Positions 32,075 to 43,595 of a stretch of 64,000 nt of DNA are shown here, piece by piece. The notes beneath the pieces were generated by a model. It saw nothing but the letters and a program-made list of their open reading frames with translations, had not been told where the DNA came from and made no database searches. Location of the stretch: assembly GCA_964016885.1 (NCBI GenBank), contig OZ024749.1, positions 56,234,001 through 56,298,000 on the forward strand, in the 5' to 3' direction. Position numbers and translations under genes: made by a program. The DNA comes from Eledone cirrhosa. Its lineage: Eukaryota. Each line of letters starts with the position of its first letter. Within the stretch, counting starts at the first letter, position 1.

Positions 32075-32174
32075 AGACGTGTCCGTCGAACCTGCGGGTC
32101 CAGAATCAGACAGATCCACACAATGATCGCGTCTCGAGCTGTCCGCCGGCGAAACAATTGTAACACACAATAAA
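32075..32174 (+). ncRNA. Structured RNA motif with hammerhead-like 3' half (family E)
   Basis: GA-GCTG-tccgc-CGGC-GAAA-C-aatt-GTA followed by AATAAA. Homologous to 43451-43549. Confidence 0.5.
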
Positions 32175-32235
32175 TTGAGTTCAGATGCATCACTGATTTT
32201 TCGTTTTCTATTCTATATATATATATATATATATA

Positions 32236-32330
32236 TATATAGAAAAGGCTTTTCTATATTAAATATGTATACTCTGCTTTGTATTGAGTACCTTACTTCT
32301 GTAGTTACTCCCGATTGAACTCGGGATAAA
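32236..32330 (+). mobile_element. Foldback-tail family A, short copy in (TA)n
   Basis: Hairpin atatagaaaag-g-cttttctatat plus the family A tail. Confidence 0.85.
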
Positions 32331-32595
32331 CACACATATATATATATATATATATATATATATATATATATATATATATATATATATATATATAGTGCAC
32401 AGGACACGTAAATTGTTTACACCCGCACATAATCCCGAAATTACCACTGGTAGAACACTGGAAGGTAGTATCCGTAGTGGCAGAGAACTCAGTCCATTGG
32501 ACGAGTTAGGTAGAAGTGGTTACTGTGTTACCACTTATACATATATATATATATATATATATATATATATATATATATATATATATATATATATA

Positions 32596-32783
32596 TTATT
32601 AAGGCAAAATAATGAGTCTTGTTACTCTGGAGTTTCACGTGCTTTTCACATAGCCATCAGATAACCTTGTGAGAAGCTGGTGAAACTCCAGAGAAGCAAG
32701 ACTCAATATATAGCTTTAATAAAATGAATATTTAAACTAATTCGGTATTGTGTACACTTTCCTCTCGGAAGTCAACTACATAC
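32596..32783. mobile_element. Foldback-tail element (family F) with variant hammerhead-like motif
   Basis: Imperfect arms at 32596-32650 and 32668-32723. The minus strand reads CTGATGG-ct-ATGTG-aaaag-CACGT-GAAA-CTC-ca-GAGTA. Confidence 0.65.
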
Positions 32784-33137
32784 AGATATATATATATATT
32801 TAGACACACACACATGTATATATAGATATGTGTAAATGTGTGAGTGTCTTTGTTTGGTTCAAGGGAATTCCTCATTAAATTAGTAATTGTGATTCTATCT
32901 ATTTTGGTCATTTGATGTCATCTCCGTTGCCAGGAAGGTAAGCTACATTCAATAGAAACCAACAGATGGTGTGTCCCTTAAGATGGCTACCATCAATTCT
33001 ACCTTATATTCCCTGCTGAAAATTATAAAGCAAATGAATGCTACTATCGTAGTGAAAGAAACTACATCAAACTTAATCTCATCGAATAGGAGAGCGTTCA
33101 TTTATCACAGGTTTCTAACTTATATTGTTGTTGTAGT

Positions 33138-33729
33138 TGGCAGACTCGTTAGAACGTCTGCCAACGACAGCTCTTTATTTTCTGAATTTAAATTCCGTTG
33201 AGGTTAGCTTTGTCTTTCATCCTTAGAGGGTCGGTAAAATAAAGTACCAGTAACGCACTGGTGTCGATTTACTCGGCTTTCCCCTCCCCCAAAATTGTTG
33301 GCCTTGTGCCTAAATCAGAAACCATTATTATTACTATTATTACTAGGGCGGTGCTCGGTAGAGCGTCAGACAACATGCTTTGCAGCATAGAGTTACAACC
33401 AGAGTTCAAATCCGGCCGAGGTTAGCTTTACCTTTTACCTTTACGGGGCCGATAAAAGAAAGTACCAGTAATACACTGGGTTCGATTTAATCGACCTTTC
33501 CCTCCCCCAAAATTATTGGCCTTGTGCCTAAATCAGAAATCATTTGGATTGGCAGTATCGGTAGAGGGCCGGACGCCATGCTTTGCAGCACAGTTACGTC
33601 CCTTTACGGACTGAGGTCAAATCCGGCCGAGGTTAACTTTGCTTTTCATCCTTACAGGGTCGACAAAATAAAGTACCAGTAATACACTAGGATAATTGCT
33701 GGCCTTGTGCCAAAAGTAGAAACAATTAT
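33138..33729 (+). mobile_element. Three head-to-tail SINE S1 copies
   Basis: Copies at about 33138-33325, 33346-33541 and 33545-33729. Confidence 0.9.
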
Positions 33730-33910
33730 TATTATTGTTGCTGTTTTTGTTCTTGTTGTTATCGTTACTGTTGTTGTTGTTGTTGTTATAGATATTTGTA
33801 AATTACTTCTACGGGGTGCCGTAGTAAGTGGTCTCATTGTTTGACACAAAGCTAATCCCACGGGGGTTTCCATCGGATTGAATAGCAAATGAGGGTTAAA
33901 GGATGGTATT

Positions 33911-34051
33911 AAGAAGAAGAAGAAAAGAAAAAGAAAAGAAAAAGAAAAGAAAAAGAAAAGAAAAAGAAAAGAAAAAGAAAAGAAAAAGAAAAGAAAAAGA
34001 AAAGAAAAAGAAAAGAAAAAGAAAAAAAGAAGAAGAAGAAGAAGAAGAAGA
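33911..34051. repeat. (AAAAG/AAAAAG)n-(GAA)n purine tract
   Basis: Direct reading. It forms the tail of the adjacent minus-strand repeat. Confidence 0.95.
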
Positions 34052-40244: not shown

Positions 40245-40356
40245 TCATCATTTCATCATCATCATCTTCGTTTAACGTCCAATTTTCCACGCTGGCATGG
40301 GTTAGACGAGTTGTCCTGTTGCGAGCAATGCCAGATCGGCTGACCGTGTCTTGCTC
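40245..40356 (-). mobile_element. SINE/LINE 3' end with RTE-like (GAT)n tail (family S3); others at 54645-54686 (+), 59290-59343 (+) and 62557-62830 (-)
   Basis: catcatc..gtttaacgtcc..tttccacgctggcatgggttagacg is shared among the copies. Confidence 0.8.
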
Positions 40357-40811
40357 ATATATATATATATATATATATATATATATATATATATATATAT
40401 ATATATATATATTGTCATATACCTCTACGACTGCATCATTCTAAATGAGCAATTCTTAACCTAAACGACATTATGGAATTCTAACGGGGGAAATTTGTTT
40501 TTCAGTTGAAAGATTCATATCATTATTCACAGATTTTTTTTAGATCTATTTTCCCTAATGCTAATTTTAAAGATGTTAATGTTAAATTGATATAAGGCTG
40601 TTGATATTTAAACAATACATTGAGTTACATGCATCAGGTCTAGGCAAAAATTTGGATAGTAAATTGATCTCTTCAACCTAAAAATATCGAACACAATGGC
40701 GTTAGTTCATATACGGTCATTTAATATTTCTGTTACACGAAACTAGAGTATTTCTATAGGACCTTATTTTTAACAATGGAAAGTAATTCCTTCAAAACTT
40801 ATGGAAATATT

Positions 40812-41092
40812 CTATTAGCAATTTATTGGCAATCTCAGGGACAATCTGTTAGCAATCTCTTAACAATTTATTGGCAATATTATGGACGATATGTTAGCAA
40901 TCTTTTGGCGATCTAATGGACGATATATTAGCAATCTGTTAGCAATCTTTTGACAATCTCATGCACAATCTGTTAGCAATCTCTTAGCAATCTTTTGGCG
41001 ATCTAACGGACGTTATATTAACAATCTAATGGACATTCTGTTAGCAACCTAATAGAAATCTTTGGCAATCTGTTAACATTCTACGGACAACC
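40812..41092. repeat. Degenerate 11-bp minisatellite (tagcaatctgt)n
   Basis: Periodic gcaatct/acaatct at 11-bp spacing. Confidence 0.8.
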
Positions 41093-42356
41093 TGTAGGAA
41101 TTGTTCTGTTTCATATTAGAGTAACAAAAAAAGAAAACCTGAAACTGCTTAACAAGTTATATAAACAGACGATATAGCAGACGATATTAAAGAGAATTAT
41201 TTGAATGAAACTAGAACTATCTTTAAGATCAAATTGTAGTGTATTAGTATCTCTGTAGGGGACAGACAGTCGATTGGGATAACATTTTATTTTATTACTT
41301 CGTTTAGAATGACTGACTGCAGCGGCCATTAAAATATTTCAACATTTTAAACTCGATTAATTACAAATAGACCAGGATTTAAGATAAAATAATAACAACA
41401 ATAACAACAACAATAATAAAGATAGTACCGGAACAAGTTTAAAGTATAAAGTTATAAATGTACTTTTTTTTAAATTAAAAATAATGCTTTTTAAATTCGT
41501 TTGACATATAAAATCTCTTAAAATACTCTAAACAGTTTATAGACAATATATTTGACTGTAATAAACTGTGAGATAAAGAAACGAGAGTAGCGATAAAATC
41601 AGAGAATTGTGAGTTTTATGTCTAAGTAAGTGTGCATGTGGTTGATATATATATATATATATATATATATATATACAGATGTATACTACCAGAGGACTAA
41701 CATATACATATATGTGTGTGGGTATATATATATATATATATATATATATATATGTGTGTGTGTGTGTGTGTGTGTGTGTGTGTGTGTGTGTGTGTGTGTG
41801 CGTGTGTGTATATATAAAGATGTATACTACCAGACGACTAATATATATATATATGTGTGTATAATTACATTCATAAAATATGTGTGTTGATATATATATA
41901 TATATAGGTGTATACTACCAGACGACTAACATATACTTATATATATATGTGTGTGTGTATGTGCGTGTATAATTACATACATAAAATATAGATGTGTGTG
42001 GATATATATATATATATATATATATATACACACACACAATTATATATTTATATCTATATTCTTTATATGTATATATACTTACATACAGACACATATGTAA
42101 AAATGTATATACGCATGTGTGTGTGTTTGTAGATATGTATTATATGTATATAAGAATATGTGTGTATGTATATATCTTTGTCCATAGCTATATACCCTTA
42201 CACAGATCTAATATATTATATACTTAGCTGAATGAAGCTATTGTAACCGTTATCTTGGAGACATTATTTCAATGTCTCAATTGATATCAAGCTAAAAGAT
42301 ACGTTGACAGATCACACACACACATATACACACACATTATATATATATATGGGAGG

Positions 42357-42548
42357 GCGGTGGGTTGGCAGTATCGGTAGAGGGTCGGACGCCATGCTTT
42401 GACGCATAGAGGTACGACGGCCCTTGCCATTCTGAGTTCAAATCCCGCCGAGGTTAACTTTGCCTTTCATCCTTACGGGGTCGATAAAATAAAGAACCAG
42501 TAATGCACTGGGTAATTGCTGGCCTTGTGCCTAAAGTAGAAACAATTA
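42357..42548 (+). mobile_element. SINE S1, near-consensus, in (TA)n
   Basis: ttggcagtatcggtagagggtcggacgccatgc...gagttcaaatcccgccgaggttaactttgcc. Confidence 0.93.
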
Positions 42549-42609
42549 TATATATATATATATATATATATATATATATATATATATATATATGTGTGGG
42601 GGGGGGGGG

Positions 42610-42830
42610 GTCAGGACCCCGACGGCAGAGCTCAAGCCGTTTCGACAGCTATTTCTGGACCAGAAACTTCCGTTTCAGAATATCCCGTTAAGGGTGAAAG
42701 CAGCGATTCGTTGCTTAATCTTTAATCTGTTATTTTAATAAATATTTGCTCTACGGTTCTTATAAATTTGATATATATTTATTCTTATCGAGCCCTCTTT
42801 GGATTTTAGTCTTCACATTTATTATTATTA
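42610..42830 (+). mobile_element. Family B left arm (42610-42668) fused to the 5969-type repeat (42680-42830)
   Basis: gaccccgacggcagagctcaagccgtttcgacagctatttctgg followed by atatcccgttaagggtgaaagc. Confidence 0.75.
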
Positions 42831-43159
42831 CTATATATATATATATATATATATATATATATATATATATGTATGTATGTATGCATGTGTTGTAGTACAT
42901 GATAGTGTAGTATAGTATTTCACGAGCACGCTATCCCGTTGCTCGTATCAAGTGGAACACTCATCGTCGTAACTGACGAAGTGCCAGTTTATAGCATAGT
43001 ATATGATAGTATGATAGTGTATATGTCATGTTATAGTAACGTCTTGAACTTCAATTTTCTTTTCATTTCCATTGAGCACTCTATTAAAGATTTACACGGG
43101 ATTTATATTTTCATTATATTCGCGAGATATATATTTCCTTAAACTATATATATATATAC

Positions 43160-43595
43160 AGAGGGTATAACTTGGAGTTTCTGCAGGTTCACTCGGGAGA
43201 GCACTCGATGTTTAGCTTCACTTCTGTGATAAGGTGTAGAGCTAGACAGAGTGTAATATATTGAAAGGATAACAAGGACGATTGGTTACTCCTTCATTAC
43301 ATTTATTGGTAGGTGACGCGCGTTTCGCCACTGATCAGCTCAGGGTTCGATCTGTATCGATCCTGCCCGACTCAATGATCGGCAGCTCGGCGGACCCTTT
43401 AAAATGCTATGAGAAAAATAGATATATATAGATTTTTCTTATAGCATTTTAAAGGGTCCATCGAGCTGCCGATCATTGAGTCGGGCAGGATCGATACAGA
43501 TCGAACCCTGAGCTGATCAGTGGCGAAACGCGCGTCACCTACCAATAAATGTAATGAAGGAGTAACCAATCGTCCTTGTTATCCTTTCAATATAT
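43160..43595 (-). mobile_element. Large foldback-tail element (family E) with arms of about 164 bp
   Basis: Arms at 43256-43419 and 43432-43595 differ at 3 positions. An unpaired tail lies at 43160-43255. Each arm contains GGC-GAAAC-GCGC-GTC...AATAAA. Flanked by (TA)n. Confidence 0.88.

What the first reader, a model, noticed from the sequence alone, without database searches (positions are those of the whole stretch)
32075..43549. Family E: hammerhead 3' half fused to a conserved multi-helix domain instead of CUGAN (32075-32174 and 43451-43549)
Seen: two diverged but alignable copies keep the same predicted fold through different bases. Helix II is GCTG/CGGC versus GCTG/TGGC, preceded by GA and followed by GAAA. 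Helix III is AC-[AATT]-GT-A versus AC-[GCGC]-GT-C, so the loop changes completely but stays palindromic, with triplets GUA and GUC. AATAAA follows 6-7 nt later. Upstream of the GA there is no CTGAN. Instead there is a domain of about 58 nt closed by AGACGTG/CGCGTCT versus AGGGT/ACCCT, containing a CTG...CAG hairpin and a GATC-loop-GATC hairpin. Established: a palindromic helix III loop is typical of dimer-cleaving minimal hammerheads in PLEs. Inference: this could be a non-canonical hammerhead with a branched insertion at core position 7, a split ribozyme, or a new structured RNA derived from one. Helix I was not found in either copy.
Basis: partly seen in the sequence, partly recalled or inferred. 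Interest (0 to 1): 0.75.

Follow-up and report, generated by a model that had tools for sequence, protein, structure and literature searches.

The report
Transposon hammerhead with eroded catalytic turn
These are the self-cutting-RNA (hammerhead) motifs at the ends of a known kind of animal jumping gene; two separate lineages carry the same two changes in a normally fixed part of the active site, which likely weakens cutting, yet the changed form is present in over two thousand copies.

Summary
The sequences are real but were misread. Each site is a complete type I hammerhead in the terminal repeat of a Hydra-clade Penelope-like retrotransposon. Helix I is present (GTGT/ACAC; GGGT/ACCT), helix III is an 8-nt palindrome, and stem II is an unbranched ~60-nt rod with a conserved internal loop 11 nt from GAAA. 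The CUGANGA slot is occupied and reads CCGUCGA (U4C+A6U). Genome-wide the same domain carries CTGANGA 5,815 times, CCGANGA 2,518 and CCGTNGA 2,220 (controls 8-11). CCGUCGA occurs in two lineages that a tree refuses to join (p-AU 6e-7). Published mutagenesis predicts low activity for such U-turn mutants, so I read it as an attenuated, dimer- or protein-dependent ribozyme whose uncut RNA still serves as template. Cleavage is untested; insertion breakpoints show no peak at the cut site. The scan had noted other long-stem-II hammerheads in this genome, but no note matched these sequences. Verdict: new variant of a known kind.

The parts
32048..32216 (+). Copy 1: 5'-truncated 3' end (pLTR) of a Hydra-clade PLE, lineage A, subfamily A1, running into (TA)n
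   Evidence: 98.8% identical over 169-173 nt to L037/L047/L055; TA array from 32214
32079..32082 (+). Copy 1 helix I, 5' strand (GTGT)
   Evidence: pairs with 32163-32166; covariation
32083..32089 (+). Copy 1 core box C3-A9 reading CCGTCGA (U4C, A6U)
   Evidence: same alignment columns as CTGANGA/CCGANGA of sister subfamilies
32090..32150 (+). Copy 1 extended stem II, 61 nt: helix IIa, bulge, CAG/CTG, 4x4 internal loop (AATC 32104-07 / CGAG 32135-38), AGAC/GTCT, GATC hairpin
   Evidence: (this fold is the MFE of copy 1)
32151..32162 (+). Copy 1 GAAA, palindromic helix III ACAATTGT (32154-32161) and A17; predicted cut after 32162
   Evidence: sequence; cut site inferred by analogy, untested
32163..32174 (+). 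Copy 1 helix I 3' strand (ACAC) and AATAAA
43434..43595 (+). Copy 2: 5'-truncated pLTR, lineage B, subfamily B1, running into (TA)n
   Evidence: 97-98% identical to L004/L005/L061
43454..43464 (+). Copy 2 helix I 5' strand (GGGT) and core box CCATCGA (family CCGTCGA plus a private G5A)
43465..43524 (+). Copy 2 extended stem II, 60 nt
43525..43549 (+). Copy 2 GAAA, palindrome ACGCGCGT, C17 (43536, predicted cut after it), helix I 3' strand ACCT, AATAAA
   Evidence: cut site inferred
43154..43417 (-). Inverted third copy of the same pLTR with the 3' tail extension; hammerhead at 43293-43407, core CCGCCGA at 43387-43393
   Evidence: (96.4 bits; it was in the training set)

Best explanation
Both sites are type I hammerhead motifs with an unbranched 60-nt stem II in the terminal repeat of Hydra-clade Penelope-like retrotransposons, and their core reads CCGUCGA instead of CUGANGA, which likely leaves only slow, dimer- or protein-dependent cutting. 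Shown: the strand order, the helices, the link to an RT plus C-terminal GIY-YIG frame, and the presence of CTGANGA, CCGANGA and CCGTCGA subfamilies in each of two lineages. Inferred: two pLTR copies on one transcript pair through the palindromic helix III and would cut after GUA/GUC; U4C and then A6U dismantle the U-turn and lower the rate; this is tolerated, perhaps favoured, because insertions end about 50 nt downstream of the cut site, so the template has to be intact (or re-ligated) across it. The conserved stem II loop one helical turn from the core would be a tertiary or RT-binding contact.
For: Descriptor scan finds helices I, II, III around CCGTCGA. Pattern counts 5,815 / 2,518 / 2,220 with controls 9 / 8 / 11. 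Fold on 40 copies: 84.5% of cells paired, 152 double changes versus 55.8 shuffled (0/500), slid controls 28-38%; RNAalifold independently recovers the six pairs flanking the internal loop. Helix III 8-mer fully self-complementary in 19 of 21 subfamily majority lines (AATT, GCGC, ATAT, GATT; the two exceptions have 2 copies each) and YGAGC-to-GAAA spacer 11 nt in 250 of 251 copies. L061 holds two direct copies 4.4 kb apart around an RT-EN frame; L144 has an open 858-aa frame behind a B-type pLTR. One clade for the 27 CCGTCGA rows is rejected, p-AU 6.3e-7, on a tree built without the core; ENs of the two lineages are 37-50% identical. Literature passages: all single and double CUGA-turn mutants except the C3/G8 swap had low activity (PMC9901934); U4C and A6C natural variants cleave weakly (PMC3088659; PMC7151607); a PLE hammerhead cleaved only with its protein, and uncut RNA was the dominant insertion substrate (PMC11167929).
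Against: No cleavage data. No excess of 5' breakpoints at the predicted site: 3 of 26 (lineage B) and 1 of 26 (lineage A) in 30 of 142 loci each. Single-sequence folding favours helix IIa in A1 (median P 0.88) but not in B1 (0.14) nor in lineages D and E (0.00); B1's minimum-energy fold is a slipped rod that pairs G12. 'Pairs with a change on both sides' is not above shuffles (20 versus 17.6, 64/500), and related copies inflate all counts. My patterns demanded C3, G5, G8, A9, YGAGC and GAAAC, so their invariance is partly built in; 36 incidental HMM hits gave no new core type but are few. Too few changes have accumulated since A6U to show continued selection on the core (P 0.23-0.33 of missing it by chance). 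A1 is not clearly younger than its A6-bearing sisters (median divergence 0.03 versus 0.035-0.042).
Confidence: 0.7

Rival explanations
1. The CCGUCGA ribozyme is catalytically dead. The fold persists only as the element's 3' cis signal (RT binding or initiation) or because too little time has passed for it to decay.
For: Double mutants in the turn have low activity with no rescue (PMC9901934); hammerhead cleavage was dispensable for PLE insertion in vitro (PMC11167929); no breakpoint peak; no proof of selection after A6U; weak 10.1:11.1 pair (A-C) and 3-4 bp helix I in these subfamilies.
Against: Only positions 4 and 6 changed at family level among 18 subfamilies with 3 or more copies, and position 6 only to U, in two lineages; G6/C6 forms stay at mutation background (148 matches, control 15). 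A dead core should erode at random positions.
Confidence: 0.2
2. CCGUCGA is a fully active alternative core, rescued by the stem II internal loop or a metal preference, so U4C and A6U compensate each other.
For: U6 families occur only on a C4, C7 background (CTGBNGA has 454 scattered matches, control 79); the same pair of changes occurs twice; B1b is the least diverged subfamily sampled (0.021); A6C retains activity in Mn2+ (PMC7151607).
Against: No positive epistasis within the turn in a type III hammerhead; no compensating change elsewhere tracks the core state in the subfamily table.
Confidence: 0.12
3. One reading: hammerhead 3' half with a branched insertion at position 7, or a split ribozyme lacking helix I.
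For: The local GCTG/YGGC hairpin can be drawn in many copies (77.5% of cells paired).
Against: Closing helix 44% paired, no double change in the local helix II, overall 26 double-change cells versus 22.9 shuffled (132/500); higher energy than the rod in 32 of 40 copies; helix I and the core box are present.
Confidence: 0.03
4. CCGTCGA arose once and a short patch moved between lineages by template switching or gene conversion.
For: The 9 nt GTCCGTCGA are identical in both lineages, and copies of the two lineages lie side by side (L056).
Against: Flanks on both sides are lineage-specific, and CCGACGA intermediates exist in each lineage, so one A-to-T change suffices in each.
Confidence: 0.1

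Closest known systems
Canonical type I hammerheads of Hydra-clade PLEs (Craig et al. 2021, PMC8557442; passages and supplement part 2 with File S2 read)
   Same: Host element type, (TA)n targets, position in the pLTR near the 3' end, strand order, short helix I, frequent mismatch at the base of stem II, inverted 5'-truncated partner copy.
   Different: All listed Hydra cores begin CTGA; their loop 2 is 3-10 nt and stem II 3-7 bp. Here stem II is 58-63 nt with a conserved internal loop, and the core is CCGA or CCGT in about 45% of the three main classes. The sequence differs from the Hydra-1_oBim motif printed there.
Minimal dimer-type PLE hammerheads (Cervera and de la Pena 2014, PMC4209133; parts 1-2 of 4 read)
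   Same: Palindromic helix III, short helix I, long helix II, many consensus families per genome, low activity expected as monomer.
   Different: Their family-level core variant is U3-A8, not C4/U6; helix II of 6-8 bp rather than a 60-nt rod.
Natural core variants U4C (viroid) and A6C (phage Bcep176) (PMC3088659 section 8 and passages; PMC7151607 passages)
   Same: Changes at the same two U-turn positions, with reduced but measurable cleavage.
   Different: Single changes in rare sequences. Here both positions are changed together, 6 is U, and the form is amplified to thousands of copies in two lineages.
Poseidon PAc hammerhead of Anolis (PMC11167929, passages)
   Same: Hammerhead upstream of the element's 3' end plus a 'tail' extension; uncut RNA is template.
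   Different: Different PLE clade, and no long stem II or U4/A6 change described in the passages read; tested biochemically, whereas this one is not.
Type-SGC permuted hammerheads (PMC10085705, part 3 of 8 read)
   Same: Considered because the core seemed out of place.
   Different: Here the blocks are in ordinary CGS (type I) order.

Membership tests
Type I hammerhead ribozyme | Three helices around a junction in order I-core-II-GAAA-III-NUH-I | tested here: met
Type I hammerhead ribozyme | Canonical C3 U4 G5 A6 N7 G8 A9 box | tested here: not met
   CCGTCGA in A1/B1; CCATCGA and CCGCCGA in the 43.4 kb pair; met in sister subfamilies
Type I hammerhead ribozyme | C3, G5, G8, A9, G12, A13, A14, A15.1-U16.1 and H17 retained | tested here: met
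   18 of 18 subfamily majority lines for C3, G5, G8, A9 and H17 (partly imposed by the search patterns); copy 2 itself has G5A
Type I hammerhead ribozyme | Site-specific self-cleavage after NUH | not testable with these tools
   no RNA holder listed; breakpoint proxy inconclusive
Type I hammerhead ribozyme | Match to an Rfam hammerhead model | tested here: not met
   0 matches at E<=10 for copy 1, but also 0 for a canonical-core sister, L217, so Rfam does not cover the long-stem form
Dimer-type PLE hammerhead | Palindromic helix III, short helix I | tested here: met
   19 of 21 majority lines fully self-complementary; helix I 3-8 bp in 18 of 21
Hydra-clade PLE | Single ORF, RT with C-terminal GIY-YIG | tested here: met
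   L144 858 aa; GIY-YIG Pfam E 0.0065 on L063, below the curated cut-off; whole ORF 0 Pfam hits
Hydra-clade PLE | RWK-like motif, DKT, CxCX5C linker, CxxC and CxH around E/N, no CCHH | tested here: met
   read from the L144/L061 translations: ILWRA / IRWRA (R for K), ADKTG, CNCKKRAEC, CRLC...E...N...CRH against the description
Hydra-clade PLE | (TA)n insertion, pLTRs, inverted 5'-truncated partner | tested here: met
Hydra-clade PLE | Length generally under 3 kb | tested here: not met
   4.4 kb between pLTRs in L061, owing to a microsatellite-rich 3' region; the source says 'generally'
Hydra-clade PLE | Placement inside the Hydra clade on an RT tree | not tested
   no reference proteins were fetched
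Type-SGC permuted hammerhead | Non-circular block order | tested here: not met
   order is C, G, S
Naiad PLE | N-terminal GIY-YIG | tested here: not met
   EN is C-terminal

The most novel reading that the evidence does not exclude
CCGUCGA is a working hammerhead core without the CUGA U-turn, evolved twice by the same two steps and made viable by a new stem II internal-loop module (GARUC/YGAGC, fixed 11 nt from GAAA) or by the element's own RT; retrotransposons would thus tune their ribozyme down, or put it under protein control, to keep the reverse-transcription start attached to the template.
Probability: 0.22. Interest if true: 0.75.

Novelty: new variant of a known kind. Interest (0 to 1): 0.47.

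Why it matters
Whether PLE hammerheads need to cut at all is an open question (PMC4209133, PMC11167929, PMC8557442). This family supplies a natural allelic series (CUGA, CCGA, CCGU) in an otherwise matched context, repeated in two lineages and each amplified to thousands of copies, so the question can be tested directly with natural sequences. If CCGU cleaves, the hammerhead core consensus and search descriptors are too narrow; if it does not, it documents successful transposition after loss of the ribozyme and points to the stem II loop as the function under selection. The long-stem form is also invisible to Rfam.

Tried and rejected
Rfam scans: whole window gave only microsatellite and hairpin noise among the 150 rows shown; targeted scans gave nothing. 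Single-sequence folding z-scores were unremarkable (-0.5 to -1.1). Naiad and SECIS ideas: dropped, EN is C-terminal and no SECIS-like GA quartet register is needed. Kink-turn, and a conformer in which the core pairs with UYGA: dropped (the first by inspection; the second has P about 0). A CCGCCGA sub-lineage: 148 CCGS matches in all, consistent with point mutation. A third CCGTCGA family with another helix III: none among 19 matches. Outside this genome: 0 matches in viral contigs; 106 metagenome matches, of which the 80 fetched gave no model hit better than E 0.29, so chance; eukaryotic genomes were not searchable, so the taxonomic range is unknown. No RNA holder listed; the three contig runs of one sample only show that lineage-B variants are present and say nothing on expression. 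Breakpoint test inconclusive. Literature: searches returned no description of a U4C+A6U core or of this stem II; a 2017 RNA Biology catalogue of PLE hammerhead variants (recalled) could not be opened and may list such cores; the numeric data behind PMC9901934 were not seen (supplement list only).
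Full report
Observation. The window is microsatellite-rich eukaryotic DNA from a 3.0 Gb assembly. Each site is a member of a young dispersed repeat: 1,865 and 1,968 first-look candidates, best copies 97-100% identical. 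A covariance model built from 40 copies finds exactly these three places in the window (all three were in the training set).

Host element. Longer copies show the motif as the direct terminal repeat of a Penelope-like element. In L061 two copies lie 4.4 kb apart around a broken RT plus C-terminal GIY-YIG frame. L144 has an open 858-aa frame behind a truncated B-type pLTR. The protein shows RW(R), DKT, CxCX5C and CxxC/CxH and no CCHH, the diagnostics given for the Hydra clade in PMC8557442 (passages); I did not place it on a reference tree. Copies end in (TA)n about 50-54 nt after the predicted cut site, some with a further tail. A protein search with the EN gave 53,242 first-look candidates.

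Re-reading the fold. A type I descriptor that allowed a long stem II and a relaxed core found helix I (GTGT/ACAC, GGGT/ACCT) with CCGTCGA directly behind its 5' strand, and a sister with CCGAGGA in the same slot. Genome-wide exact patterns 'core, N42-50, YGAGC, N9-13, GAAAC' gave CTGANGA 5,815 (reversed control 9), CCGANGA 2,518 (8), CCGTNGA 2,220 (11), CTGBNGA 454 (79) and CCGSNGA 148 (15). From 262 extracted copies, 251 were sorted into 21 subfamilies around seeds that I chose by eye; 11 were left unassigned. On an alignment of 40 hand-picked copies spanning them the type I fold with a rod-like stem II has 84.5% of cells paired and 152 cells changed on both sides against 55.8 in shuffles (0/500), with slid controls at 28-38%; the number of pairs with such a change (20) is not above shuffles (64/500). 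RNAalifold predicts only six pairs, all in my model, flanking the internal loop. The loop GARUC/YGAGC is kept in every subfamily and lies 11 nt from GAAA in 250 of 251 copies, although 9-13 was allowed. Helix III is a self-complementary 8-mer in 19 of 21 majority lines, as expected for dimer cleavage (PMC4209133, parts 1-2). Against: thermodynamic folding supports helix IIa in A1 but not in B1, D or E, and B1 prefers a slipped rod.

History of the core. A tree of 159 copies built without the core box (147 columns, weak in many forks) places CCGTCGA in two lineages: A (helix III AATT) and B (GCGC). Holding the 27 CCGTCGA rows together is rejected, p-AU 6.3e-7; position 4 needs at least 11 changes and position 6 at least 5 over all rows, private mutations included. 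ENs linked to lineage A are 37-50% identical to the lineage B protein in five copies. Each lineage has CTGA, CCGA and CCGT subfamilies, and lineage C also has CTGA and CCGA forms. Among 18 subfamilies with three or more copies position 4 is C in 11 and U in 7, position 6 is A in 14 and U in 4, and C3, G5, G8 and A9 do not vary (partly imposed by my patterns; 36 incidental HMM hits showed no other core type). In B the CCGT subfamily B1b is the least diverged (0.021 versus 0.071-0.085 for B2-B4); in A the CCGT subfamily (median 0.03 over 23 copies) is no younger than its sisters. Transfer of a short patch between lineages is not excluded.

Mechanism. Shown: anatomy, host element, allelic series. 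Inferred: two pLTR hammerheads on one transcript pair through helix III and cut after GUA or GUC. U4 and A6 build the U-turn; in a complete double-mutant scan of a type III hammerhead all mutants of this turn except the C3/G8 swap had low activity (PMC9901934, passage), and natural U4C and A6C variants are slow but alive (PMC3088659; PMC7151607). I therefore expect CCGUCGA to be strongly attenuated. This fits the biology: insertions include about 50 nt beyond the cut site, and for the one PLE studied in vitro uncut RNA was the main substrate and the ribozyme needed the element's protein (PMC11167929, passages). A search for copies broken at the cut site found no peak (3 of 26 and 1 of 26 breaks in 30 of 142 loci each), and too few changes have followed A6U to show continued selection. 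A dead relic and a rescued active core both remain possible.

Comparison and novelty. It works like, and descends from, the type I hammerheads of Hydra-clade PLEs; it fails the canonical-core feature and cleavage is untested, so I file it as a core variant, not as a proven ribozyme. The published Hydra list (supplement of PMC8557442, part 2 of 59) has only CTGA cores and short stems II. Six literature searches returned no U4C+A6U core or this stem II; one relevant 2017 catalogue (recalled) could not be opened. Rfam has no match even for a canonical-core sister. No relative was found in viral or metagenome contigs. Earlier notes of this scan describe other long-stem-II or mismatch-bearing Hydra hammerheads in this genome, but none matched these sequences or the core words.

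Verdict. The proposed new architecture is not real. What remains is a new variant of a known ribozyme with a repeated, testable erosion of its U-turn and an undescribed stem II loop. Interest 0.47.

Noticed in passing
window 7107-7158, 10158-10198 (-), 13200-13230 (-): Hammerhead-like motifs of other families with canonical CTGATGA cores; the one at 7.1 kb is an inverted pair.
   Followed up: no
L133 + near 9260 and L034 + near 2767: Another long-stem-II family (about 80 nt, helix III ACAATTGT) seen once with CTGATGA and once with CCGATGA: possibly the same U4C shift in an unrelated family.
   Followed up: no
window 43434-43443 and lineage B copies: Pyrimidine tract plus TAG about 10 nt upstream of helix I looks like a 3' splice site; in D. 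virilis Penelope the intron end maps to helix I (PMC4209133).
   Followed up: no
window 43154-43595: The two arms of the inverted pair share private changes in stem II but differ near the centre (CCGCCGA with CTCATAG versus CCATCGA with CTTATAG); the inverted arm's version matches both pLTRs of L061.
   Followed up: partly
L144 6382-9846 (+): A 1,155-aa open frame of a different PLE (RT, C-terminal GIY-YIG, Asn-rich insert) directly after the Hydra ORF.
   Followed up: no
L061 2-1828 (-): A second, divergent Hydra-like RT frame of 609 aa or more.
   Followed up: no
L072 (G000:C4:240.285-240.295 Mb): Three tandem 2.4-kb units, each holding an inverted pair of the lineage B motif.
   Followed up: no
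window about 56866-56956: A near-perfect GC-rich inverted repeat of about 30 bp beside a (TA)n run; probably another fold-back PLE end.
   Followed up: no
window 32222-32291, 57138-57234, 14713-14770, 7183-7229: A separate short repeat family follows copy 1 after the TA run.
   Followed up: no
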